64,000 nt of DNA, from positions 22,261-86,260 of IMG/VR virus record IMGVR_UViG_3300035660_000003. One strand, given 5' to 3'. This stretch comes from a virus. Taxonomy: Duplodnaviria > Heunggongvirae > Uroviricota > Caudoviricetes. Below the pieces are notes generated by a model. That model was not told the origin of the DNA and ran no database searches. It saw only the letters and a list, made by a program, of their open reading frames with translations. Made by a program: the position numbers and the translations under genes. Positions 8,270-48,154 of this stretch are shown in pieces; position 1 is the first letter of the stretch; every line of letters starts with the position of its first letter.

Positions 8270-8315
8270 TCAATCACCTCTTCATTCTTTCGTTCATACT
8301 GGATATGCTCAGAGG

Positions 8316-8335
8316 CATATATAAGGCTTACGGTC
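8316..8335 (-). promoter_or_regulatory. BRE/TATA promoter (catatataaggcttacggtc)
   Basis: near-identical to 60177 element; ~55 nt upstream of gene start 8269. Confidence 0.5.
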
Positions 8336-8392
8336 TCACAATCGAGTCATATCAGTTCACAAACGTGAACCATGCCCAAAAACACGAAAGAT

Positions 8393-8408
8393 TAATCAAT
8401 TGATTAAG
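8393..8408. repeat. 16-bp palindrome TTAATCAATTGATTAA
   Basis: exact match. Confidence 0.95.
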
Positions 8409-9327
8409 TTCTTCATACTTAGCACAGGACTTAGTATGGAGTCATACTCAAGCATATTGACCATGTTTCTAGGCATATCTGGTATGCTCGGATATGCTTG
8501 GATTATGTCTGGATATATCTAGTCATCGGCGAATTCGAAGAAGCCCCCGAAATGGCATACTCGATATGCCTGCGTGCATATGAAGTATGCTTCAATATAT
8601 CTGCAAGCATATCAATTCCGAACACGAATTAAACTGAGCAGATTTACCAATGAATGAAACTCCACGAAGGAACAAGTGAAACCTTTCACCAAAAACCGCA
8701 CCGAAATGTGCCCGCATTCAACCAACGAGTTCCAACCCAGACTAATTTTTCGAGCATATGCCCATTCAAATGACCAGTCAACGAGTCACCATCCCAGACA
8801 AGCCCGTGTCTAACCTGTCACTTTACAAACCATCGCAAATTCATTAACTAGACTAATTCATTAAGCTAGACTAGGATTCCCAAACCACAAATCATATGGT
8901 TAAAGGGGCAAATTAGGGCTATTTTTAGGCTTAGAATTGAGAATGGCGGGGGAGTTCGGGTTGGTTGGTTGAATTGTGCTTGTATTCAAGCTCAATACTA
9001 TTATAACCCCTACCCTTAACCTTAATCACGAATCCGCACCTATTCCGCACCTATTTATCATTAACATCCATATATAACAAGTTAAACAAGCTAACATGCC
9101 AGTTTTTAGGGTTAATTAGCTCTATAAGGTGTAGTTTGTGCCTTATTGGTTCGTGGTTAATGGTGTTGGTTGATTCGTTCGTTGCCTCAATTGAAAATAG
9201 GCAAATTATGAGGTTGTTTTCGGATTTCCGCACCGAAATAGGTTCGCTTTTCTAATCGCTTGATTTTGGTGGCTTAGAATTATAAGTTGAATTTTTGGTT
9301 GGTTTCAAGTCATGGTTCACGGTTTGA

Positions 9328-9343
9328 TTAATCAATTGATTAA
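9328..9343. repeat. 16-bp palindrome TTAATCAATTGATTAA
   Basis: exact match. Confidence 0.95.
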
Positions 9344-9399
9344 GTTTTTTGAGAAACCTAAAAATCGGCGGATTTAAGAAATGGTTCAAAAATTGGGAT

Positions 9400-9413
9400 A
9401 AGTTTTAAATATT
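9400..9413 (+). promoter_or_regulatory. TATA box aagttttaaatatt
   Basis: upstream of HNH gene 9444. Confidence 0.45.
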
Positions 9414-9443
9414 AGAACCGCATATTAGGTATTTGGTGTAATC

Positions 9444-13828: not shown

Positions 13829-14041
13829 CTCTTTTTTATTTAATTTCTAACTCCTATTTTTTCCCTAAAAAATTGGGTTTCAAATTAAGGGTTTCAGCTA
13901 TTTCTATTTCCGTGAATCCGTCTTTTCGCATTAAAACCCTTATGTAGAATTGTGCCAAATTTTCTTTCGTTTTGTTCACTTTTCAACACATCTTTTTTAT
14001 TCGATTCAATTTCTATAAAAAACTATTGAAATTGATTAAGT

Positions 14042-14386
14042 TTATTTGGGTTTATATTCAGAATAGCAATTTGGATTATTTGCAAACAGCAATAATGATT
14101 TTTTTGGTTTTTGATTCGGAATTTTTTTGATTTGCCTTAGAACATAACCGATAAAGCTATTGCACTCTAAACAGTAAATTTCTGCACATTCTAAATTTTC
14201 GCTTATTGCCTTAAATGCGTCTTGTGTTTTACCTTTTAGGTGTTTACATTCTAATGGTGTATTTTTATAATCAATTTTCAAATATTGCGTGTGTTCATGG
14301 ATTAAGTCTTTTTTGCTGAAACCGTTCATGTAGTTATCGTTAAAAATCCTTTTTGCTATTTCTCTTATTTCTTTATTTGTTTTCAT
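14042..14386 (-). CDS. hypothetical protein
   Basis: 114-aa ORF, Cys pairs. Confidence 0.55.
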   Translation of the reverse strand: MKTNKEIREIAKRIFNDNYMNGFSKKDLIHEHTQYLKIDYKNTPLECKHLKGKTQDAFKAISENLECAEIYCLECNSFIGYVLRQIKKIPNQKPKKSLLLFANNPNCYSEYKPK

Positions 14387-14564
14387 TTTTCAAACACTCC
14401 TTTTTTTAAACCTCTTTTAACGAAATCGCCTCAAATCTGTTTGATTTAGAGGTTTCGATTCGTTTTTGAACTCTGTTTCCAAATCCCTCAATTTCTTAAC
14501 TTGTTTGTCAAAATAGGCACAAATTAAAACGAATTCCTTAAAATCACTAAGTTTTGTTTGCATT

Positions 14565-14801
14565 TTAAAAATCCTCTATGCCTTCATAAATTGACTTTTT
14601 ACTCTTTAAAAATTGGCTTATTTCAGAAATAGGCTTATTTTCAACCGTTTTAACTGAAATAACGTTAATTTCATCTAATTTGTTTTGGTAAAACTCAATT
14701 TCTCTTTTACTATCTACAATTACAATATGAGTTTTACCGTTTAGCAAAAATCTTATTTCTCTTTTCTGAAATGCCACAATTTTATTTTTTCTAGTTTGCA
14801 T
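14565..14801 (-). CDS. hypothetical small protein
   Basis: 78-aa ORF. Confidence 0.4.
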   Translation of the reverse strand: MQTRKNKIVAFQKREIRFLLNGKTHIVIVDSKREIEFYQNKLDEINVISVKTVENKPISEISQFLKSKKSIYEGIEDF

Positions 14802-15468
14802 TTTTCAAACCTCTTTAAGCGAATCCTCAATAGTACGGTTCTAAAAAACCATTCTAATCTATGTATAGATGTATGGAAAAACCAAAAATTGCGATTTTTC
14901 GCTAAGTTTTCCGAAATTTCCATTAAAATCTCCATAAAATCTTATTCGTTTTTATGTTCTACAAATCCACAATTTGTCTAAAAATCGAAGTGTATGCCAC
15001 GAAAAATCCGAAAATAAGCCTAAATTAAGCCTCTTCGACGTATTTCTCAATTTCTGGCACGGCATACAGGTCCAAATCTCCTCAAATCTTAAAGATTTAG
15101 CGATTTTCCCATTGTTCGACTTGCTTTATAAGGCTCGAATAGTCAAAAAGTCTTATGGAGTGATTTTTTTAATTTCATGGATTTTCACGTATTTATATAG
15201 TCATGGTTTCATGTATATATAAGCAATTCGTTCATTTTTACATGGTTTAAAAACCCCAAACTCATGGAAATTGCACTCCATAAGGTTTCATGGGAAAATA
15301 CAGATTATTTAAGCGTTTCGGTTTTTGCTTATAAATAGTGTAGGTTTTGGCTACACATTGAGGTTTACAAACGTAAAACCTTTCAGAGAACCCTCAAATT
15401 AGGCTTTAAATCTAAAAAGAACCACAATTTGATAATTCTAAAATCAAAACAAGCTCAAATTAAAAAGA

Positions 15469-15484
15469 TTAATCAATTGATTAA
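15469..15484. repeat. 16-bp palindrome TTAATCAATTGATTAA
   Basis: exact; AAAGA..TATG flanks. Confidence 0.95.
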
Positions 15485-15645
15485 TATGTCTTTAAATGAA
15501 CACATTAAAAAAGTTTAGAGTAAGAGTTTAAAATTTTGTAGTGATATGCACGGTTAAGCATAACGCATGATTATATAAAATATGTCTAAATTTGGATACG
15601 TTCAAAAATCGGATATTGACAACAACGGACATATAGGGAAAAAAC

Positions 15646-15661
15646 TTAATCAATTGATTAA
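15646..15661. repeat. 16-bp palindrome TTAATCAATTGATTAA
   Basis: exact match. Confidence 0.95.
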
Positions 15662-16042
15662 ACGACTTGTAGATATGTTGAACAAATAGCCACAAACCGA
15701 AAAGGCAGAATCAGGCTTGTTTCCGCATAAGGACAGTCGAAACGAATCGTTTTTGAAAATCAATCATTGTGATTGTCAGAGAATTTTCGAATCCATAATT
15801 GTCTAATTGATTCTGTGCCGAACGGTTAAATTTAAGTTGTTCTAGTCTTGAGGGGTTTCGTTTGGGGTTATTTTCTTTATGGTTAATGTTGAAAAGTCAC
15901 GGTGTCCTTACTAGATTTAGAAGGTTCGATAAGTCGTTTTTGAAAATCATTTCTCGTTTAAGTCGTTCGGATAAAAACGTTCACCTTTTAGCGTTGTTTG
16001 GCAAAATAAAGCCTAAAATGAAGAAATAAACTTAGTGGAAAA

Positions 16043-16058
16043 TTAATCAATTGATTAA
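16043..16058. repeat. 16-bp palindrome TTAATCAATTGATTAA
   Basis: exact match. Confidence 0.95.
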
Positions 16059-16217
16059 ATTTTTATTGGTGTTTGCAAACCGTCACAAACAATAGGGGGG
16101 GATTCACGAAACACCATAAAAACTATGTCAATTTTTCGAAACGTGAACGTGCAAAAATTTAGGCAATTTGCACGTATAAAGAACATTAACGTTATTAAAA
16201 TCACAAACAATATTCGT

Positions 16218-16233
16218 TTAATCAATTGATTAA
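16218..16233. repeat. 16-bp palindrome TTAATCAATTGATTAA
   Basis: exact match. Confidence 0.95.
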
Positions 16234-16359
16234 ACGGGGAAAAACCCCGATTTGAGGCGGAAAAAATGGCTAGAGCTTGATTTGGGTTCGTTTTTCGGTT
16301 TTATTGGATTTTTGGGTTTAAATACGGTTTCCAACACTTCAGCAAGTCGCTTTAAAAGA

Positions 16360-16375
16360 TTAATCAATTGATTAA
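16360..16375. repeat. 16-bp palindrome TTAATCAATTGATTAA
   Basis: exact match. Confidence 0.95.
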
Positions 16376-16695
16376 GGTTAATATTTATAAGTGTCGTTGT
16401 GTAGAACATATATAGCGTAGAACAAAAATACACAAGTCGTGAATAAAGCCATGAAAGAACCGCAAATTGAAAATCCACCTCAAAATAAGCCTCAAATCCT
16501 GAACACTCCTCGATTTGCGGTTCTCCACCTCTTTTTCTGAGTTGCATGGAAAGTTAAACTAAGGGTGAACATAAGCCGCACATAGAGCCTATTTTTTAGC
16601 TTTTATTTTTTGTCAATTCTTTTAGAGAAAACTTAGAGAGATTTTTGAACCGAAATGTCGAATGATTTACGAGCCTCTCCAGAAACTTTGAAAAA

Positions 16696-16711
16696 TTAAT
16701 CAATTGATTAA
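16696..16711. repeat. 16-bp palindrome TTAATCAATTGATTAA
   Basis: exact match. Confidence 0.95.
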
Positions 16712-16954
16712 TCCGAATCCAAAAAATTTTTAGGCTTTGAGAAAACTTAATAAATTTTAGGCACTATTAAAAAGGCGAAATTCTAAGAGGGGCGGGGGGT
16801 TAAATGGATTCCTTTTGTTTGCGTTTATCAAATTAGAATCACCTTTACTTTTTCTCCGATTCGTGACTAATATCGTGTAATTCCAACTGCATTAATCCTC
16901 TTTTCCATAAGACTTATAGGCACGCCTTCCTAATATATTTTGTGGTAAAATTGA

Positions 16955-17344
16955 ATGAGAAATTTAGCTAAGAAAAAATTGCGTGACAAAAAATGGCATC
17001 AAAAAAATAGAGAATATTTAAAACTTTATTTAAGAAAATATCGAAAAGAGCATCCTAATTTATATTGGAAATATATAGAATCAGAAAGAAAAACTTATGA
17101 ACGTGTGAGAAAAAAGATAAATGATTTACTCGGTTCAAAATGCAAAATTTGTGGTTCAACTTGTAATTTAGTTTGTCACGAAATACACGGTAAGCGTCAT
17201 TCCACTAATGCAAATTACATTTTAATCCACATTGAAGATTTCGTTCGATTATGTTCACAATGTCACAGAATGGTTCACTATTTAGCAAAAAACAAAAATG
17301 TTAATCTCGAAATTTTAATCCGTTTCAAATCAATAATACTTTAA
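16955..17344 (+). CDS. HNH endonuclease-like, K/Y-rich N-terminal repeats
   Basis: CKICGS...CHEIHGKRH...LCSQCHRMVH. Confidence 0.7.
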   Translation: MRNLAKKKLRDKKWHQKNREYLKLYLRKYRKEHPNLYWKYIESERKTYERVRKKINDLLGSKCKICGSTCNLVCHEIHGKRHSTNANYILIHIEDFVRLCSQCHRMVHYLAKNKNVNLEILIRFKSIIL

Positions 17345-17720
17345 CTTTTTTAGAGTTTCTTTTAAAGTTGAAAGGGTTCAATTCTAATGACATATCCGTT
17401 ATTTCAATGTAATTTATTTCCTGCTTATCAGTTAAAATCGTTGTGCAGCCACCATAACACGTTCCGTTCGCTACGATTTCGTTAAACCCTTCGAAAATTT
17501 CATAATCCCATTGATAAGAGCCATTTTCTGCGTCAATATCTTGATTTCCACCGCACGGAAAGACTATTTTCAATTTCTTGTTCCAAAAACCCTCTCTTCT
17601 CAAAATACATTCAATATTCTGGCTTATTACTATGTCAGCATCCTTAAAAACGCCATCCTTAAAATTTATTGAGTCGAATATATCTTCTAAGCAAAATTCT
17701 AGCGTTTTTGGATTTGCCAT
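17325..17720 (-). CDS. KVKV-tail family protein (C-term KVKVLLI)
   Basis: 131 aa; conserved C-terminal heptapeptide; palindrome 50 nt upstream. Confidence 0.65.
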   Translation of the reverse strand: MANPKTLEFCLEDIFDSINFKDGVFKDADIVISQNIECILRREGFWNKKLKIVFPCGGNQDIDAENGSYQWDYEIFEGFNEIVANGTCYGGCTTILTDKQEINYIEITDMSLELNPFNFKRNSKKVKVLLI

Positions 17721-17769
17721 GTTTAATCAAATATTTAATAGTTATTCACTCTAATAAGGATTTCGATGT

Positions 17770-17785
17770 TTAATCAGTTGATTAA
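17770..17785. repeat. palindrome variant TTAATCAGTTGATTAA
   Basis: central AGTT; then TCTTTT. Confidence 0.9.
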
Positions 17786-17846
17786 TCTTTTCGTTTTTCG
17801 GCACGACCATTCCCATCTGCTATTCATCTGGCTATCCTCAGAAAAC

Positions 17847-18050
17847 TTAAACTAAAACAACTTTTACTTTATCAAGTCTAACAATTTTATAAGAATAACC
17901 GCATTTTCTATTATTTGGAATTTGTTTTCTAAATTCCGCAAAACAATTTTTACACAAAAAACGATTCGAATTTTTAAGTTTGTGAAATTCATAAATTCTA
18001 ATACTAGCTTCGACTTTTTCGCCTATTCTATCACATCTTTCACAATTCAA
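17847..18050 (-). CDS. KVKV-tail family small Zn-ribbon protein (KVKVVLV)
   Basis: 2x CxxC; terminal gene of array. Confidence 0.65.
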   Translation of the reverse strand: MNCERCDRIGEKVEASIRIYEFHKLKNSNRFLCKNCFAEFRKQIPNNRKCGYSYKIVRLDKVKVVLV

Positions 18051-22038: not shown

Positions 22039-22177
22039 TCTAGTTTCACTCTTTGTTAATACTGATATGCACTCCGTTCCTTATAAAGTTTTGCCAAACC
22101 GAAGCATAATTTTCCATAAAAAAATTGCAATTGCTTTGACCAGAACTACTGCACGGAGAGCCAAATTTTTGAAATAA

Positions 22178-22193
22178 TTAATCAATTGATTAA
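22178..22193. repeat. 16-bp palindrome TTAATCAATTGATTAA
   Basis: exact match. Confidence 0.95.
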
Positions 22194-22359
22194 TCTTTCC
22201 GATTTTTTGCCCAAGCTCAAAATTCAGGAGTTTATTACGAACCGTTTGCCAAAAGAACCTTAAATTAAGTTAATTCAAAATCTTGGAAGCGTCGCCGAGT
22301 CATCCAACCGTTACTCGGACACCAAGTTTCTCTCCGTTTTGAGAACCCTTTTTTAAAAC

Positions 22360-22375
22360 TTAATCAACTGATTAA
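22360..22375. repeat. palindrome variant TTAATCAACTGATTAA
   Basis: central AACT. Confidence 0.9.
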
Positions 22376-22444
22376 ACATTTCCCAACCCCCGTCTTCGCT
22401 TTGACACAACGCCCGTCTTCGTTTTGAAACTCCCCACTTAAAAC

Positions 22445-22460
22445 TTAATCAGTTGATTAA
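22445..22460. repeat. palindrome variant TTAATCAGTTGATTAA
   Basis: central AGTT. Confidence 0.9.
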
Positions 22461-22536
22461 ACGAACCATTATAAAAATTTCGCATTACCTTAGAAAACTT
22501 TAACAAAAACGCTAAGATTCTAAGAAAAAAATAAAA

Positions 22537-22905: not shown

Positions 22906-23285
22906 TTTTACCCGTAAAAGAAAAAAGACTTTAAGTATATAAGTTTTATGGTTAATGATATTTGAGTAGGTTTATAACAGCATCAATTACCATTATCCAC
23001 AGCAAAATCATAACAATAGTCACGAGCATTGAAACAGCATTCACGCAAACTTGCGAATATAAATCCTCGAACATGCTTTTACCTTACGTAATCCTTAGTT
23101 TTTTTAGTGCGGTCAATTTTATAGGTTTCAATGGCTTTTAGCATTTCCTCACGACTTATCGGTTTTCCATGTTTTTGGGTTTCGCAACCCTCACAATCTT
23201 CCTCACATTCTGCCATTTTAATTCCTTAATTAACAATAGGTTAATCTCTCTTATAAACCTTCTCTATATAATCTATCTATCTAAA

Positions 23286-23301
23286 TTAATCAATTGATTA
23301 A
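23286..23301. repeat. 16-bp palindrome TTAATCAATTGATTAA
   Basis: exact match. Confidence 0.95.
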
Positions 23302-23538
23302 TCTTTTAGTTTCGGACAACCAGCCTACTTCATAGTTCAAATCGCCTCGAAAAACACCGAAAACCCGAAAACAAGCCCAAATCTCTGTCACCTAAGCCCA
23401 CCGCCCAACCTGTGCCTTAAAAATGCCCGAATTTCCCCGAATAGGCTTAATTTAGCCTCTTTTTTCAAAATAAGGAAAAATGAGTCAATTCTTTTTGTCG
23501 CACGAAGGGTGTCAGCCTAGCCGCTCCCATGAAAATGA

Positions 23539-23554
23539 TTAATCAATTGATTAA
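23539..23554. repeat. 16-bp palindrome TTAATCAATTGATTAA
   Basis: exact match. Confidence 0.95.
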
Positions 23555-23584
23555 ACGCCAGACTGCGGGAAATCAAGATTTTAC

Positions 23585-23600
23585 TTAATCAATTGATTAA
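23585..23600. repeat. 16-bp palindrome TTAATCAATTGATTAA
   Basis: exact match. Confidence 0.95.
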
Positions 23601-23760
23601 ACTGCCGAAACCATTAGTGCAACCAAAAATGTAATAATAGATGGCACTATGCCACATAGCCGCACATAGAGCCAAAAAATTCAGAAAGAATAATTTAGAA
23701 AATAAAAAAGGAGTTTATTTGTCGGCTTTTATTTAGAATTATTTGCTTTCTTTCAAATGT

Positions 23761-23815
23761 TGTATTTAAAAAGGCTAAAGTAAACCTGCTAAGATTGAAA
23801 GGCTAAAGTAAACCT
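23761..23815. repeat. tandem direct repeat, 2 x ~27 bp (aaggctaaagtaaacctgctaagattg)
   Basis: two adjacent exact copies. Confidence 0.8.
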
Positions 23816-23848
23816 GCTAAGATTGATTAGACCAATTGAAATTATAGC

Positions 23849-23902
23849 CTATTTAAAAAGTCGGAATTTCAAAGGGGTGGGGGGTATTTAAAAACTGGAG
23901 GA
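23849..23902 (-). promoter_or_regulatory. two tandem consensus promoters flanking a G-run
   Basis: ctatttaaaaagtcgg and gtatttaaaaactggagg. Confidence 0.4.
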
Positions 23903-29307: not shown

Positions 29308-29516
29308 ATTAATATCACTTTAATTTTGGATGGTTTCGTTCTGACAAATTTCAAAAATAGTTTAGTCCATTCCGCTCCGTTTGAACCTTTCGGATAAGTG
29401 GCGTGATAAATTTTCACCCATAATCTTACACATTTTATGCAAAGTTTAACATAGTTTGTTCCATCCATTAAATCAAAACCCGTAAATTCTTCCTTTGAAT
29501 CGCATCTGTCACACAT
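29304..29516 (-). CDS. KVKV-tail family Zn-ribbon protein (KIKVILI)
   Basis: first gene; TATA 29543-29556 then palindrome. Confidence 0.65.
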   Translation of the reverse strand: MCDRCDSKEEFTGFDLMDGTNYVKLCIKCVRLWVKIYHATYPKGSNGAEWTKLFLKFVRTKPSKIKVILI

Positions 29517-29542
29517 TTTAATTCATTATTATAGATAGTTTT

Positions 29543-29556
29543 GGCTCTTATAAACG
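29543..29556 (-). promoter_or_regulatory. TATA box of array C
   Basis: ggctcttataaacg; palindrome 8 bp upstream. Confidence 0.5.
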
Positions 29557-29562
29557 TATCGT

Positions 29563-29578
29563 TTAATCAATTGATTAA
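29563..29578. repeat. 16-bp palindrome TTAATCAATTGATTAA
   Basis: exact; 8 bp from TATA box of array C. Confidence 0.95.
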
Positions 29579-29818
29579 GTTTTCCAATTTAATTTTCCAT
29601 AATCGAGAATAAAACTTTTCGCCTTTCTTTCGGCAAAATCACGGAACTTTTAATGAAAACTTACCGAGTTCGAACAACTTTATTTGGCATTATGAAAAAA
29701 CTTAATGAGTATGGGAAAAGCACGGATAATTCATTAATATTTTTCCCTTAATGCCAAATAATTTCGTTCGCTAATCTTCGAATGACACACCAATGATGCC
29801 CAAATTCATAAGATAAGA

Positions 29819-29834
29819 TTAATCAGTTGATTAA
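29819..29834. repeat. palindrome variant TTAATCAGTTGATTAA
   Basis: central AGTT. Confidence 0.9.
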
Positions 29835-29880
29835 TCTTTCCAGACAACGTAACGCTTGGCAGATTCGATTGGTCGCAAAA

Positions 29881-37993: not shown

Positions 37994-38524
37994 TTAAGAC
38001 ATCGCTCTATTTAAACTTTTCTCTAATTCTCGAATGCGATTCTGCAATTCATGAATATAATTATGACTTAATTCACTATGTTCATTATTTGGGAAAGCCA
38101 TTAAATTTTCTGGTCTATTATCATCTGTAATTCCATTCAGATGATGAATAACACATCCTTTTGGAAGTATTTTTTTATGATGTTCTTCCCAAATTAAAAT
38201 GTGCTCATAAACATAAGGATGCCCTTTACTGGTTCTTGAATGATTTGGATTATAAATCATGATATAACCATGATGTTTAATTCTTCCACCTTTCCAACTT
38301 GAATGTTTTTCTCCACAGTAATAAATACGTTTTGATAAATGTGCGGCTTCACTTCTAGTTCTACATTTAATTTCCAATTTTTGAAAAAGATATTTAGTTC
38401 CCGTATGGGATAAATTCAATAACAAGGCAATGTCTCGCAATGATTTACTTTTATATAATAGTTCTAACTTACTTTTATCATATTCTTTTGGGTTAATTGG
38501 TTTACCTCTTGGCATCTTAATCAC
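37994..38524 (-). CDS. HTH + HNH endonuclease (second HNH type)
   Basis: IHHLNGITDDNRPENL...N..H; N-terminal HTH. Confidence 0.65.
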   Translation of the reverse strand: MIKMPRGKPINPKEYDKSKLELLYKSKSLRDIALLLNLSHTGTKYLFQKLEIKCRTRSEAAHLSKRIYYCGEKHSSWKGGRIKHHGYIMIYNPNHSRTSKGHPYVYEHILIWEEHHKKILPKGCVIHHLNGITDDNRPENLMAFPNNEHSELSHNYIHELQNRIRELEKSLNRAMS

Positions 38525-45183: not shown

Positions 45184-45639
45184 TTAATTCTCATGAAGTT
45201 TATGATGAACTGAACCAATGCTGATATTTAGCAGTATTGCTATTTCTCTTATTGAAAAATGTTTATGATAATTCTTTACTATTTTCGCTGGAATCTGCTT
45301 CAAATCGGCATTTTTATATTGAAACTCTTCAATAATCTTTAATCCCTTCTCGCATTCTGCCTTTTTGATAATTAAATATGGGATGATTCTTTTTAGAAAA
45401 TCTTTAGCTTCTTGTCTATGACCAATTCTAAAACAATAACATCTTGACCAATTAATTCTATTTTTCGGAAGACTTCGTTCTTTTACTTTTCCGTAACCCA
45501 AAGTTCTTTGAATAATCTCTAATACTTCTTTGTTAGTATTGGTAATCGTGATACAGATTTTAGGATATTTCTTCAATACAATATATGGATTTCCCTCACC
45601 GTCAAATAGTCCTGCAATATATTCGATAGATACGTTCAT
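45184..45639 (-). CDS. LAGLIDADG homing endonuclease (single-motif, homodimer type)
   Basis: IAGLFDGEGN; C-terminal HTH; bracketed by palindromes 45065 and 45746. Confidence 0.75.
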   Translation of the reverse strand: MNVSIEYIAGLFDGEGNPYIVLKKYPKICITITNTNKEVLEIIQRTLGYGKVKERSLPKNRINWSRCYCFRIGHRQEAKDFLKRIIPYLIIKKAECEKGLKIIEEFQYKNADLKQIPAKIVKNYHKHFSIREIAILLNISIGSVHHKLHEN

Positions 45640-46810: not shown

Positions 46811-47358
46811 ACGTTTTTTTCCCAAAATAAATCTTGAATGCCATCTTTTTTCCATTTTAAATATGCTCTAAAAATTTCATTGATTGTTATTGGAAATCCA
46901 CGCCAAACGTCAACTCCAACATTACAAATATCCCATGCAAGTTTTTCAAAATGCATAGTTCGAAATTTCCAATGTTGATGAATATGCCCCACTAAACAGA
47001 GATAGTAACCATAACAACTTTCTTCTGGTTTATGAATCAAGAGAAGTTCTTTTCCACCTAAGTGAATTCTTATATCCCCAATGCAGGTCTTTATGCCATT
47101 ATTAGAGTCGTGATTTCCCCTCAGGAAAATAATATTTCCATTCAATTGTTGTCTATAATATTCCGCATCTTTCTGTTTCACTTGTTTAAAACAAAAGTCT
47201 CCTAAGTGAAAAACAATATCCTCTGGTTTAATTCTTGAATTCCAATTCTGTATCAAGAAATAGTCGTGTTCGCCAATACTCTTGAATGGTCGATTACAAT
47301 ATTTTATAATATTCTCATGCGAAAAGTGTGTGTCAGCCGTAAACCAATATTGAGTCAT
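46807..47358 (-). CDS. calcineurin-like metallophosphoesterase
   Basis: ADTHF, HLGDF, GNHDS, GHIH. Confidence 0.75.
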   Translation of the reverse strand: MTQYWFTADTHFSHENIIKYCNRPFKSIGEHDYFLIQNWNSRIKPEDIVFHLGDFCFKQVKQKDAEYYRQQLNGNIIFLRGNHDSNNGIKTCIGDIRIHLGGKELLLIHKPEESCYGYYLCLVGHIHQHWKFRTMHFEKLAWDICNVGVDVWRGFPITINEIFRAYLKWKKDGIQDLFWEKNV

Positions 47359-48154
47359 TAGTTTTCCCTCTAAATTTTATTGCGAAAATATGCTTCGGCT
47401 CTTTCTTGACCCAACGACGGTCCCACCATCTTTTTCCACGTCTCGTAGTCCCGAAGCCTTTTGTCATTCCTATATATTTCCAATTGTCAGCATAATAAAT
47501 ACTACCCATGCGGGGGGGTTCAACAAAAGTGATTAATCCCCGAAGTTTGCCACCATATTTCTCTTCATAGTCTCTTTGGATTGCGATTCGAAATGATTTC
47601 AATGTCATAGTCGCTAAATTCTTGTCTGGCACAACAATTCGAAAGACCTCATTATTCATGATTTCAAGAAGTTTATCCGACCTATTTTCCTTGTTTATAT
47701 TAAAGTAATTATCAATTGGTTTTACGGAATATGGTGCAGAGTTTCCGCCGATGATTCCTACGATTTTGCCCTTCCAGATGACTATATAATTGATTGACCG
47801 TCCGACTATGCCTTTGCTGTTTGGATAATGAGTGAGATAAAGCGTGGCGAAGATTTTGTTGCCTTTTGGCACTTGAAGGAGACAGGGATATTTATAGGAT
47901 TGCGGAATCATATAGGTTTGAGCTAGGGCTGATTTTAACTCGTCCTCGGTTTTGAATGCAACCATGCCTGAGTTTCCTATTCCACTTTGCTCGGCGATTT
48001 CATCTGGATTCTTGCCTAACCGTTTAATGAAGCATTCCTTGCAGTAGTATTTTCCCCAGACACCATACTTGCCTTTCGCACCGCATTCACAAGTTTTAGT
48101 TCGTCTGGCAATAGAGCCGAAATGTTTTCCCTTCTGAGCATATTCATCAGTCAT
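47333..48154 (-). CDS. hypothetical protein with N-terminal CxxC
   Basis: 273-aa ORF. Confidence 0.6.
   Translation of the reverse strand: MTDEYAQKGKHFGSIARRTKTCECGAKGKYGVWGKYYCKECFIKRLGKNPDEIAEQSGIGNSGMVAFKTEDELKSALAQTYMIPQSYKYPCLLQVPKGNKIFATLYLTHYPNSKGIVGRSINYIVIWKGKIVGIIGGNSAPYSVKPIDNYFNINKENRSDKLLEIMNNEVFRIVVPDKNLATMTLKSFRIAIQRDYEEKYGGKLRGLITFVEPPRMGSIYYADNWKYIGMTKGFGTTRRGKRWWDRRWVKKEPKHIFAIKFRGKTNDSILVYG

What the first reader, a model, noticed from the sequence alone, without database searches (positions are those of the whole stretch)
14400..16950. 2.5-kb gene-poor stretch with six palindrome copies and short direct repeats
Only marginal ORFs are present. Palindromes lie at 15469, 15646, 16043, 16218, 16360 and 16696. 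Direct repeats of cgtttttgaaaatca (15755, 15935) and several hairpin-capable segments are present. The spacing (100-400 nt between palindromes) would fit a set of short transcription units (small RNAs or micro-ORFs) each bounded by the palindrome.
Basis: inference. Interest (0 to 1): 0.5.

Follow-up and report, generated by a model that had tools for sequence, protein, structure and literature searches.

The report
Palindrome-bounded noncoding RNA cassettes, archaeal virus
The six palindromes are copies of a promoter-linked protein-binding motif used about 30 times across this uncultivated archaeal virus genome, and here they divide a 2.15-kb stretch with no genes into swappable cassettes, at least two of which look like small structured RNAs absent from Rfam.

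Summary
All six TTAATCAATTGATTAA copies are at the stated coordinates. The gene-free stretch is 14802-16954, because 14417-14801 holds two real small genes. The direct repeat starts at 15748, not 15755.

The palindrome is not special to this region. The window has 29 copies of TTAATCA-NN-TGATTAA, 30 of 31 near-copies are intergenic, and the local density equals the intergenic average. It follows an orientation rule, 5'-AAAAGA-palindrome-(6-70 nt)-archaeal TATA box. Virus lineages change both half-sites in concert, and the core hairpin is weak. This fits a dimeric DNA-binding protein site beside promoters.

The palindromes split the region into seven modules (M1-M7). M1, M3 and M6 are conserved in related metagenomic viral contigs as nucleotide sequence, not as reading frames. 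M3 has a long-range helix with compensatory changes in six haplotypes and G-U pairs that fit the + strand only. M6a has palindrome, TATA, a 15-bp stem and a U-run. Differences between relatives break at the palindromes, as with T4 PeSL cassettes and the HGTV-1 motif.

M1 may instead be a control region or origin. No transcription data exist.

The parts
14417..14563 (-). 48-aa gene.
   Evidence: SD-supported start. tblastn matches in L011, L010, L044 and L018. Codon score 0.156.
14565..14801 (-). 78-aa gene. A short homolog of the gene family that flanks M1 in relatives. That family is ImmA/IrrE-like (Peptidase_M78, HExxH); the HExxH motif is absent in this copy.
   Evidence: 52% identity to the M1-adjacent ORF of L046 and 34% to the N-terminus of the L010 HExxH protein. 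Peptidase_M78 hits in 5 of 6 relatives, with L009 above the cut-off. Codon score 0.283.
14802..15468 (.). Module M1: a conserved ~650-nt noncoding control element. The left part (to about 15100) has minus-type composition. GC skew flips at about 15100.
   Evidence: Nucleotide-level homologs in L010, L084, L003 (two copies), L011, L083, L085, L046, L044 and L009, always beside the leftward gene. All reading frames match alike. Skew. No covariation support for an RNA fold.
15124..15132 (+). TATA-like box CTTTATAAG in M1. Its orientation is ambiguous.
   Evidence: Present as TTTATAAG, TTTAAATA or TTTATATA in all 10 M1 homologs.
15152..15284 (+). Inverted repeat CTTATGGAGTG (15152-15162) and CACTCCATAAG (15274-15284), enclosing most of the CATGG array.
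   Evidence: Coordinates. The pairs are mostly invariant, with G-U variants in L010 that fit the + strand.
15176..15293 (+). Five CATGG(A/T/G)(A/T)(A/T) repeats in one orientation, iteron- or operator-like.
   Evidence: Starts at 15176, 15202, 15241, 15263 and 15289. The expectation is 0.49 per strand for the whole 661-nt module, which I scaled to about 0.08 for this span. This is the densest cluster in the window. CATGG motifs recur in the M1 homologs.
15338..15377 (+). Two small conserved hairpins: GTGTAG..CTACAC (15338-15356) and TTTAC-AAAC-GTAAA (15364-15377).
15469..15484 (.). Palindrome 1, with an AAAAAGA flank on the left and the TATA-like TTTAAATG 6 nt to the right.
15485..15645 (+). 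Module M2. Present in L011 and absent from L010. It holds the start of a marginal 35-aa ORF, 15582-15689(+), which reads through palindrome 2.
   Evidence: ORF codon score 0.196; the first 12 residues are kept in L011, with no SD site.
15646..15661 (.). Palindrome 2.
15662..16042 (+). Module M3: candidate structured RNA, with its core at about 15690-15985. The long-range helix P1 pairs 15727-15739 with 15900-15911.
   Evidence: Homologs in L010, L011, L041, L038, L046, L085 and L035. P1 has 12 pairs, 92.5% of cells paired, 6 pairs with changes on both sides, 0 of 500 shuffles as good, and slid controls at 25-60%. The G-U pairs fit the + strand only. L035 adds a further haplotype. Indels break all reading frames. 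No Rfam family.
16043..16058 (.). Palindrome 3.
16059..16217 (.). Module M4: unique to this genome among the sequences fetched. By eye it contains two hairpin-capable segments.
   Evidence: No nhmmer match in 85 loci. Sequence.
16218..16233 (.). Palindrome 4.
16234..16359 (.). Module M5: unique to this genome. It has a GC hairpin, CGGGGAAAAACCCCG (16235-16249), and + strand T5 runs at 16291 and 16309.
16360..16375 (.). Palindrome 5, with a TAAAAGA flank on the left.
16384..16391 (+). TATA box TTTATAAG, 8 nt after palindrome 5.
   Evidence: Kept as TTTATAAG or TTTAAATA in L003, L084 and L011.
16412..16537 (+). M6a: candidate small RNA of about 125 nt. It has a 4-bp 5' hairpin with G-U pairs, a 15-bp stem (16456-16470 with 16510-16524) around a conserved 39-nt loop containing CCACCUC and CACUCCU, then a U5 run at 16532.
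   Evidence: Fold -27.5 kcal/mol, z = -3.6, 0 of 200 shuffles as stable. The L011 stem keeps pairing through changes on both sides. There is no U5 run between 16309 and 16532. 1- and 2-nt indels break the ORF.
16538..16695 (+). M6b: conserved tail with T-rich runs (T6 at 16592 and 16606).
16696..16711 (.). Palindrome 6.
16712..16954 (-). Module M7: the likely 3'-end or remnant zone of a minus-strand unit. A canonical SD plus TTG opens a 24-codon ORF (16831-16757), followed by a C-rich motif and a T-run like the one after the gene ending near 23893.
   Evidence: SD context identical to real gene starts. The ORF is cut to 15 codons in L084. Codon score -0.249. Similar motif at 23860-23900.
16955..17344 (+). 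HNH-type endonuclease-like gene bounding the island. Relatives carry the same gene type beside or inside M1.
   Evidence: PHROG HNH hits. Homologous ORFs in L011 (inside M1), L044, L046 and L085.

Best explanation
The window comes from an uncultivated tailed archaeal virus or virus-like element. TTAATCA-NN-TGATTAA is a genome-wide, promoter-proximal recognition site for a dimeric DNA-binding protein that has not been identified. It lies just upstream of the BRE/TATA region in a fixed orientation, 5'-AAAAGA-palindrome-TATA.

Because the same 16-22 bp sequence recurs at many promoters, it also acts as a recombination junction. Cassettes between copies are gained, lost and swapped among related viruses. 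This is how PeSL promoter/stem-loop cassettes behave in T4-type phages, and what was proposed for the TATA-plus-inverted-repeat motif of halovirus HGTV-1.

The 14802-16954 stretch is one such hyperplastic island, but its cassettes carry no protein genes. It is a + strand island inside a minus-strand gene array. M3 (about 15690-15985) and M6a (about 16412-16537) are small structured RNAs expressed as short units that end at oligo-U runs. M1 is a conserved control region, upstream of and pointing away from an ImmA/IrrE-like gene family. M4 and M5 are lineage-specific fillers, and M7 is a remnant 3' zone.

Shown: motif statistics, intergenic placement, orientation rule, concerted half-site change, nucleotide-not-protein conservation, P1 covariation, and breakpoints at palindromes.
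Inferred: protein binding, promoter activity, transcription of M3 and M6a, and what the RNAs do.
For: Palindrome
- 33 matches against 2.9 expected.
- 30 of 31 copies lie in the 18% of the window that is intergenic, p about 1e-21.
- 17 of 31 have a TATA-like box within 90 nt, on the side opposite the AAAAGA flank.
- The central 2 nt vary freely while the half-sites are fixed within a genome. A clade of relatives uses TTAAGYA-NN-TRCTTAA instead, and the two types almost never share a locus; the one exception is L018, with five T-type and one G-type.
- The core hairpin is only -2.1 to -2.8 kcal/mol.

Archaeal and viral context
- Recurrent AAAGTTTAAATA and AAGGTTTATAAG promoter boxes and GGTGAT Shine-Dalgarno sites.
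- Tail-like, Top6A-like and archaeal DUF proteins.
- Relatives are listed in IMG/VR, and one is binned as an uncultured archaeon.

Noncoding status
- Codon scores.
- All six frames match relatives equally.
- Indels of 1-2 nt.

RNA evidence
- M3 helix P1.
- M6a promoter, stem and U-run, z = -3.6.
- GC skew turns positive from about 15100 to 16400, as on the coding strand of genes.

Cassette shuffling
- L010 lacks exactly M2 and keeps only a degenerate second palindrome.
- L003 and L084 replace M2-M5 with unrelated palindrome-bounded modules.
- L011 keeps M2, a short M3 and M6, but not M4 or M5.

Precedent
- PeSL cassettes (PMC2839356, PMC4122927).
- The HGTV-1 motif (PMC3950731).
Against: - There are no transcription data.
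- No DNA-binding protein was found: no HTH or RHH family was reported among the window ORFs scanned against Pfam at the cut-offs used.
- Only 2-3 of the six local palindromes have a recognisable TATA nearby. M3 has no clear TATA between palindrome 2 and its conserved 5' end.
- M3 as a single sequence folds no better than shuffles, z = +0.5, and only one helix is supported.
- M6a rests on three lineages, and no further copies were found.
- T5 runs lie inside M3 (15750) and 12 nt after the putative M1 start (15164).
- M1 shows no covariation.
- Whether the palindrome activates, represses or does neither is unknown.
Confidence: 0.55

Rival explanations
1. The core of the region (M1, perhaps with its neighbours) is a replication origin or a lysis/lysogeny-type switch. 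The five same-strand CATGG repeats and inverted repeats would be initiator or repressor binding sites between divergent promoters. The palindromes would be operators of a repressor controlled by the neighbouring ImmA/IrrE-like protease, as with ImmR/ImmA or with DdrO/IrrE and its RDRM palindrome. Those comparisons come from my own knowledge, not from a tool result.
For: - CATGG array, with about 0.08 expected in that span.
- Longest and AT-rich noncoding stretch, with a cumulative GC-skew minimum at about 15100-15300.
- M1 is always beside a Peptidase_M78-like gene in relatives.
- The contigs of L005 and L006 end 1.7-2.7 kb upstream of the ATPase gene, at the equivalent place.
- No covariation supports an M1 RNA.
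- The 16-bp palindrome at about 30 promoters has the architecture of a repressor regulon.
Against: - No initiator (Orc1/Cdc6 or Rep) and no XRE-type repressor was found (and the other Pfam scans).
- The window's own copy of the protease-like gene lacks HExxH.
- The skew flip is equally explained by divergent transcription.
- M1 is duplicated in L003 and tolerates a 390-nt HNH gene insertion in L011.
- This reading explains neither the M3 helix covariation, with its strand-specific G-U pairs, nor the M6a unit.
Confidence: 0.2
2. The stretch is evolutionary debris: decayed genes and spacer DNA piled up between repeated promoter motifs, with no function of its own.
For: - M4 and M5 have no homolog in any fetched relative.
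- M7 carries a canonical SD plus TTG start opening only 24 codons, cut to 15 in L084.
- HNH homing-type genes insert in and around the region.
- Module content turns over between close relatives.
Against: - M1, M3 and M6 stay recognisable at the nucleotide level in relatives whose ATPase is only 57-70% identical.
- No frame-specific protein similarity.
- Compensatory changes keep M3 P1 and the M6a stem paired.
Confidence: 0.1
3. The palindromes act as RNA or single-stranded DNA hairpins, either as terminators, insulators or processing sites. A long + strand precursor would be cut at each hairpin into small RNAs, or the hairpins would terminate antisense transcription.
For: - With both flanks (AAAAGA...TCTTTT) the hairpin reaches -10.3 kcal/mol.
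- On the strand opposite the promoter, the motif reads as a hairpin followed by TCTTTT.
- The central nucleotides are free, like a loop.
Against: - None of the six local copies has both flanks, and the core hairpin is weak, -2.1 to -2.8 kcal/mol.
- Stem sequence is identical in all copies of a genome and changes in concert between lineages, rather than by copy-by-copy compensation. That points to sequence-specific recognition.
- No U-tract follows the hairpin in the mRNA sense.
Confidence: 0.1
4. The modules encode micro-proteins.
For: The 35-aa ORF 15582-15689(+) has gene-like codon usage, 0.196 bits per codon, and its first 12 residues are kept in L011.
Against: - All other ORFs score at or below 0.03 bits per codon, mostly inside the antisense-null range.
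- No SD site precedes the 35-aa ORF, and its continuation differs completely in L011.
- Frames are broken by indels in M3 and M6.
Confidence: 0.05

Closest known systems
PeSL (promoter-early stem-loop) regulatory cassettes of T4-type phages (Arbiol et al. 2010, PMC2839356; Comeau et al. 2014, PMC4122927)
   Same: - A short conserved motif with an inverted repeat next to a promoter.
- Repeated in intergenic DNA of hyperplastic regions.
- Insertions, deletions and replacements between related genomes have their junctions at motif copies.
   Different: - Archaeal TATA-type promoters here, not sigma-70 promoters.
- The inverted repeat is a weak AT-rich 16-mer with no U-tract on the sense side, so terminator function is unlikely.
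- Sequence-specific half-sites evolve in concert, which suggests a protein operator.
- In this region the cassettes carry conserved noncoding or RNA modules instead of small ORFs.
Conserved TATA-box-plus-inverted-repeat motif preceding ORFs in halovirus HGTV-1 (Sencilo et al. 2013, as described in PMC3950731)
   Same: An archaeal tailed virus in which a repeated motif combines a TATA-like box and an inverted repeat upstream of many genes. The authors likened it to PeSLs and proposed roles in transcription control and genome shuffling.
   Different: - Different host group, sequence and virus lineage; no sequence comparison was made here.
- In HGTV-1 the motif is described before ORFs, not as bounding a multi-cassette noncoding island with structured RNAs.
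Repressor regulons with a palindromic operator and an M78 protease: ImmR/ImmA of ICEBs1 and phages, and DdrO/IrrE with the RDRM motif in Deinococcus (from my own knowledge)
   Same: A 16-17 bp AT-rich palindrome at the promoters of some tens of genes. A Peptidase_M78-like gene lies beside the conserved control module M1 in relatives.
   Different: - No XRE-type repressor gene was found.
- The window's M78-like homolog is truncated and lacks HExxH.
- This is an archaeal promoter context.
- The link between protease and palindrome is pure inference.
Archaeal small noncoding RNAs and phage-encoded structured RNAs (general class)
   Same: M6a has an own TATA box, a stable stem-loop and an oligo-U end. 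M3 has a covariation-supported long-range helix.
   Different: No match to any of the 4227 Rfam 15 families. Function and expression are unknown.

Membership tests
PeSL-like promoter/inverted-repeat cassette | A short conserved motif containing an inverted repeat, repeated in intergenic regions. | tested here: met
   29 copies of TTAATCA-NN-TGATTAA. 30 of 31 near-copies are intergenic.
PeSL-like promoter/inverted-repeat cassette | A promoter element directly adjacent to the inverted repeat. | tested here: inconclusive
   17 of 31 copies have a TATA-like box within 90 nt in a consistent orientation. Within the region this holds clearly for 15469 and 16360 only. Promoter activity was not measured.
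PeSL-like promoter/inverted-repeat cassette | The stem-loop is an effective transcription terminator. | tested here: not met
   By sequence criteria only: the core hairpin is -2.1 to -2.8 kcal/mol, and no U-tract follows it in the mRNA sense. Function was not assayed.
PeSL-like promoter/inverted-repeat cassette | Indel and replacement junctions between related genomes coincide with motif copies. | tested here: met
   Breakpoints against L010, L003/L084 and L011 fall at or within about 11 nt of palindromes 1, 2, 3 and 5.
PeSL-like promoter/inverted-repeat cassette | The cassettes flank small nonessential ORFs. | tested here: not met
   Within 14802-16954 the modules are noncoding. Elsewhere in the window the motif does precede small ORFs.
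Structured noncoding RNA gene (M3) | Base pairs kept through compensatory changes across homologs. | tested here: met
   P1 has 12 pairs, 6 of them with changes on both sides, 92.5% of cells paired and 0 of 500 shuffles as good. L035 adds a further haplotype. Only this one helix is supported.
Structured noncoding RNA gene (M3) | Own promoter, own terminator and evidence of transcription. | not testable with these tools
   There is no clear TATA between palindrome 2 and the conserved 5' end. T-runs at the two direct repeats are not conserved as T5 or longer. No expression data.
Structured noncoding RNA gene (M6a) | A promoter, a stable conserved structure and an oligo-U end. | tested here: met
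   TATA conserved 8 nt after the palindrome. z = -3.6. The stem stays paired through changes on both sides in L011, and G-U pairs fit the + strand. U5 run at 16532, with none in the preceding 223 nt. Only three lineages are available.
Any Rfam 15 family | A score at or above the family's gathering threshold. | tested here: not met
   No hit in the window. Only sub-threshold chance hits were seen: SNORA12 at 24.6 bits against 45, and MIR6274 at 28 against 80. No tRNA or tmRNA.
CRISPR array | Repeats of 24-48 nt at regular spacing, with spacers of about 30-40 nt. | tested here: not met
   The repeat is 16 nt and the spacing is 142-397 nt. Copies are dispersed over 48 kb at promoters.
Replication origin with iterons or ORB elements | Clustered initiator-binding repeats next to an AT-rich unwinding element and an initiator gene. 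| tested here: inconclusive
   The CATGG x5 cluster and AT-rich flanks are present. No Orc1/Cdc6 or Rep-type gene was detected in the ORFs scanned. The skew signal is confounded by transcription direction.
ImmR/ImmA- or DdrO/IrrE-type regulon | An M78 (HExxH) protease gene together with an XRE-type repressor gene, and palindromic operators at target promoters. | tested here: not met
   The palindromic sites are present. M78-like genes occur only in relatives, and the window's homolog lacks HExxH. No XRE or HTH family was found among the window ORFs scanned against Pfam.

The most novel reading that the evidence does not exclude
The island is a virus-encoded small-RNA locus with a modular build. 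A sequence-specific palindrome marks each unit as both promoter site and recombination junction, so the virus population can shuffle whole noncoding-RNA genes like cassettes. M3 would be a structured RNA conserved across viruses whose ATPase is only 57-70% identical. M6a has a conserved loop carrying anti-Shine-Dalgarno-like CCACCUC and CACUCCU. Both would be new RNA families that act on host or viral gene expression, for example by masking ribosome-binding sites. The palindrome regulon as a whole would be switched by one virus-encoded factor linked to the ImmA/IrrE-like gene beside M1.
Probability: 0.15. Interest if true: 0.75.

Novelty: new variant of a known kind. Interest (0 to 1): 0.52.

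Why it matters
Gene regulation in archaeal viruses is known mainly from a few viruses of Sulfolobales and haloarchaea.

- **A transcription-control handle.** This gives a sharply defined operator-like motif with a clear orientation rule relative to TATA boxes, and lineage-specific half-sites. The viruses come from anoxic sediments and peat and have never been cultivated. The motif can be tested directly by DNA-affinity capture and reporter assays.
- **Promoter motifs as recombination junctions.** The PeSL idea would extend to another archaeal virus lineage, and to cassettes that carry RNAs rather than ORFs.
- **New RNA candidates.** M3 and M6a are two concrete structured-RNA candidates absent from Rfam. 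Few noncoding RNAs of archaeal viruses appear to have been described (from my own knowledge, not checked systematically).

If the rival reading holds and M1 is an origin or switch, the same coordinates still mark the control centre of the genome.

Tried and rejected
- **Public phage genomes.** DNA search of 14000-18000 found no match.
- **Source contig.** Exact-protein look-up of the ATPase is not on record.
- **Genome collection.** The single-protein scan found nothing. The profile scan found one uncultured-archaeon contig.
- **IMG/VR scans.** The palindrome plus flank gave two unrelated single hits. The M6a loop pattern gave two chance hits.
- **Rfam and tRNA.** Nothing.
- **Degraded genes.** Six-frame tblastn against 85 related loci matched all frames alike. 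The 105-aa ORF 16230-16547(-) spans the palindrome, TATA and M6a stem, has no SD site and scores 0.005 bits per codon.
- **Internal paralogs of the modules.** Only palindromes and SD motifs repeat.
- **M1 as a structured RNA.** RNAalifold gave a positive (penalising) covariation term.
- **M3 thermodynamic signal.** None on either strand. Its internal structure could not be resolved.
- **More M6a copies.** The covariance model found none.
- **M6a tail targeting the ATPase ribosome-binding site.** I counted a 13-nt complementary run in the window, but it does not covary in L003, L084, L011 or L010.
- **TGTTSAACA as a second operator.** Only one copy in the window.
- **Loose iteron consensus searches.** At chance level.
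- **A palindrome-binding transcription factor.** No HTH or RHH family was reported among the window ORFs scanned against Pfam at the cut-offs used.
- **An XRE-like ORF in the right half of M1 in distant relatives.** None; only HNH-type ORFs.
- **Literature search for the motif sequence.** No paper contains it.


Full report
**What is in the sequence.**
The palindrome is the perfect 16-mer TTAATCAATTGATTAA.

The left end of the interval is not gene-poor. 14417-14563 (48 aa) and 14565-14801 (78 aa) are minus-strand genes. Both have Shine-Dalgarno sites, protein-level matches in distant relatives and gene-like codon usage. The right end is bounded by an HNH-type gene at 16955-17344(+).

The truly gene-free stretch is 14802-16954, 2153 nt. 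ORFs inside it score at most 0.03 bits per codon. Real small genes of this genome score 0.245 +/- 0.098, and antisense ORFs score -0.16 +/- 0.15. The one exception is a 35-aa ORF at 15582-15689(+), at 0.196.

**Context.**
The window looks like a large tailed archaeal virus or virus-like element.
- Genes are small and tightly packed, mostly on the minus strand.
- Starts have the form AAAGGTGAT-N6-ATG/TTG.
- Promoter boxes AAAGTTTAAATA and AAGGTTTATAAG recur.
- There are tail-like proteins, a Top6A-type Toprim protein, a MoxR ATPase with a VWA partner, a DNA ligase and several archaeal DUFs.
- The MoxR ATPase has over a hundred relatives on metagenomic contigs of up to 150 kb. Two are in IMG/VR, and only one is in a binned genome, an uncultured archaeon.

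I fetched 85 related loci.

**The palindrome is a genome-wide, promoter-linked recognition site.**
- With up to 3 mismatches the window has 33 matches against 2.9 expected.
- In the general form TTAATCA-NN-TGATTAA there are 29 copies.
- 30 of 31 near-copies lie in the 18% of the window that is intergenic, p about 1e-21.
- The density inside 14802-16954 is what the other intergenic DNA predicts: 6 seen, 5.5 expected. The region is unusual for its length, not for its palindromes.
- 17 of 31 copies have a TATA-like box within 90 nt, with two preferred distances of about 6-28 nt and about 57-72 nt. The A-rich flank AAAAGA lies on the side away from the TATA box. The rule is 5'-AAAAGA-palindrome-TATA, on whichever strand the downstream unit lies.
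- The two central bases vary freely, while the 7-nt half-sites are the same in all copies of a genome.
- A clade of relatives uses TTAAGYA-NN-TRCTTAA instead. Among the fetched loci only L018 carries both types, five T-type and one G-type.
- The core hairpin is weak, -2.1 to -2.8 kcal/mol. Only copies with both flanks reach -10.3, and none of the six local copies has both.

Fixed sequence within a genome, with concerted change between lineages, points to recognition by a dimeric protein on double-stranded DNA rather than to a structural hairpin. I could not identify the protein. No HTH or RHH family was reported among the window ORFs scanned against Pfam at the cut-offs used. I cannot tell whether it activates or represses.

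**Modules.**
The six palindromes cut the island into seven modules:

| Module | Coordinates |
|---|---|
| M1 | 14802-15468 |
| M2 | 15485-15645 |
| M3 | 15662-16042 |
| M4 | 16059-16217 |
| M5 | 16234-16359 |
| M6 | 16376-16695 |
| M7 | 16712-16954 |

nhmmer against the related loci gave these results:
- M1 in ten places.
- M3 in seven other loci.
- M6 in three.
- M7 in one.
- M2 weakly.
- M4 and M5 nowhere.

The conservation is in nucleotides, not protein. All six frames match relatives equally, and the alignments carry 1- and 2-nt indels.

**M3.**
RNAalifold on seven homologs predicts a long-range helix (P1). It pairs 15727-15739 with 15900-15911 and encloses about 160 nt.
- The central six pairs read AAGGAC/GTCCTT here. 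In relatives they read AAAAAC/GTTTTT, ACAAAC/GTTTGT, GGAAC/GTTCC and GCAGAC/GTCTGC. An eighth homolog, L035, has GAAACGAC/GTCGTTTC.
- Counting gives 92.5% of cells paired, 6 of 12 pairs with changes on both sides and 0 of 500 shuffles as good. Slid controls reach 25-60%.
- Three pairs use G-U on the + strand. On the minus strand these would be A-C mismatches. That favours a + strand RNA, opposite to the flanking genes.
- In distant relatives M3 lies just upstream of the ATPase gene on the opposite strand.

There are limits. Only this helix is supported. The single sequence folds no better than shuffles. There is no clear TATA between palindrome 2 and the conserved 5' end.

**M6a.**
- Palindrome 5 is followed after 8 nt by TTTATAAG. 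L003 and L084 keep TTTATAAG and L011 has TTTAAATA.
- About 25 nt further on begins a conserved segment ending in a 15-bp stem (16456-16470 with 16510-16524), a 39-nt highly conserved loop and a U5 run at 16532.
- The fold is -27.5 kcal/mol, z = -3.6.
- In L011 the stem reads AACCACAAAT/ATTTGTGGTT, against AACCGCAAAT/ATTTGCGGTT here. That is one clear compensatory pair, with a second at the stem end.
- A small 5' hairpin needs G-U pairs on the + strand.
- The stretch 16309-16532 is free of + strand T5 runs, which are otherwise frequent here.
- The overlapping ORFs are broken by indels.

The evidence is coherent, but it rests on three lineages. A covariance model found no more copies.

**M1.**
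This 650-nt block is the most widely conserved module and always lies directly upstream of a leftward gene. In L010, L011, L003 (second copy), L009 and L044 that gene encodes an HExxH protein with consistent Peptidase_M78 (ImmA/IrrE-like) hits, one above the Pfam cut-off. The window and L046 have a short homolog without HExxH.

M1 contains:
- A TATA-like box at 15124-15132, present in all ten homologs.
- Five CATGG repeats in one orientation within 118 nt. The expectation for the whole 661-nt module is 0.49 per strand, so about 0.08 for this span.
- An 11-nt inverted repeat around that array, and two small hairpins.

GC skew flips from minus-type to plus-type at about 15100. There is no covariation support for an RNA fold, and a T7 run follows the putative + strand start.

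I read M1 as a divergent control region. An origin of replication or an immunity-type switch cannot be excluded. L003 has two copies of M1, and L011 carries an HNH gene inserted inside it.

**Cassette behaviour.**
- L010 (ATPase 95% identical) goes from M1 through one palindrome straight into M3. It lacks M2 and keeps only a degenerate second palindrome.
- L003 and L084 (about 90%) share M1 and M6. Between them they carry three unrelated palindrome-bounded modules of 49, 227 and 64 nt in place of M2-M5. One of these holds its own 12-bp stem.
- L011 has M1, M2, a 49-nt module, a short M3 ending at the second direct repeat, a 73-nt module and M6.
- Breakpoints fall at or within about 11 nt of palindromes.

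This is the pattern described for PeSL cassettes in T4-type phages, where promoter-plus-stem-loop motifs mediate modular shuffling (PMC2839356, PMC4122927). A TATA-plus-inverted-repeat motif before many ORFs of halovirus HGTV-1 has been likened to PeSLs (PMC3950731). The differences here are a weak hairpin with no sense-strand U-tract, so terminator function is unlikely, an operator-like sequence specificity, and cassettes without ORFs.

**Short transcripts.**
U5 runs are avoided in the mRNA sense of this genome's genes (1.0 per kb). In the island they occur at 7.9 per kb on the + strand and 9.8 per kb on the - strand.

**Verdict.**
The units bounded by palindromes are real as evolutionary cassettes. 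Two of them have RNA-gene features. Micro-ORFs are not supported, apart from one marginal case. The palindrome itself is a genome-wide promoter-associated operator, not a local boundary signal.
It stays plausible for M7, and perhaps for M4 and M5.
- Nothing here proves transcription or protein binding.

Noticed in passing
window 51444-52064 (-): A 206-aa ORF matches Ribosomal_L16 (L16p/L10e) at E = 8e-20, 71.5 bits against a cut-off of 27.9. That would be a ribosomal-protein homolog inside a virus-like gene array.
   Followed up: partly
window 16955-17344 (+); L011 7823-8161; L044 2585-2989; L046 8291-8692; L085 15246-15590 and 14501-14737: HNH-type endonuclease-like genes (motifs CxxC ... HEIHG ... 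CxxCH) recur beside, or in L011 inside, the conserved M1 module. Positions and orientations differ, which suggests homing into this noncoding region. The window also has an HNH_3 gene at 37994-38515(-) and a LAGLIDADG-like gene at 45184-45639(-).
   Followed up: partly
window 8270-9443, 22039-22536, 23075-23887, 29308-29880: These are further gene-poor gaps of 0.5-1.1 kb, each holding 2-3 palindromes. 23640-23900 shares short motifs with M6b and M7 (CCGCACATAGAGCC and a G-rich GGGGTGGGGGG box). They may hold more noncoding cassettes.
   Followed up: no
window 8360-8392 and 9300-9328: The palindromes at 8392 and 9328 are preceded by GTGAACCATG and CATGGTTCAC. These are reverse complements of each other, about 940 nt apart, and resemble the CATGG repeats of M1.
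   Followed up: no
L003 7858-8100 and L084 1950-2190 (module X): In place of M2-M5, these close relatives carry a palindrome-bounded module with its own 12-bp stem, CAACACACCACA...TGTGGTGTGTTG. This is possibly another small-RNA cassette. The sub-threshold Rfam miRNA hit there is spurious.
   Followed up: no
window 47333-48154 (-) and 49392-50060 (-): Two ORFs match the Druantia DruA family, at E = 4e-15 and 3.5e-22. A defence-system-associated domain is carried by the virus-like element.
   Followed up: no
L005 and L006 (contigs of 66,037 and 58,864 nt): Both contigs end 1.7-2.7 kb upstream of the MoxR ATPase gene, at the place that corresponds to this noncoding island. These could be genome termini or assembly breaks at repeats.
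   Followed up: no
L003 12749-12898; L006 7660-7827: Relatives encode a 49-55-aa protein that matches the TFIIB-type zinc ribbon (PF08271) a few genes downstream of the VWA gene. No equivalent was seen in the window.
   Followed up: no
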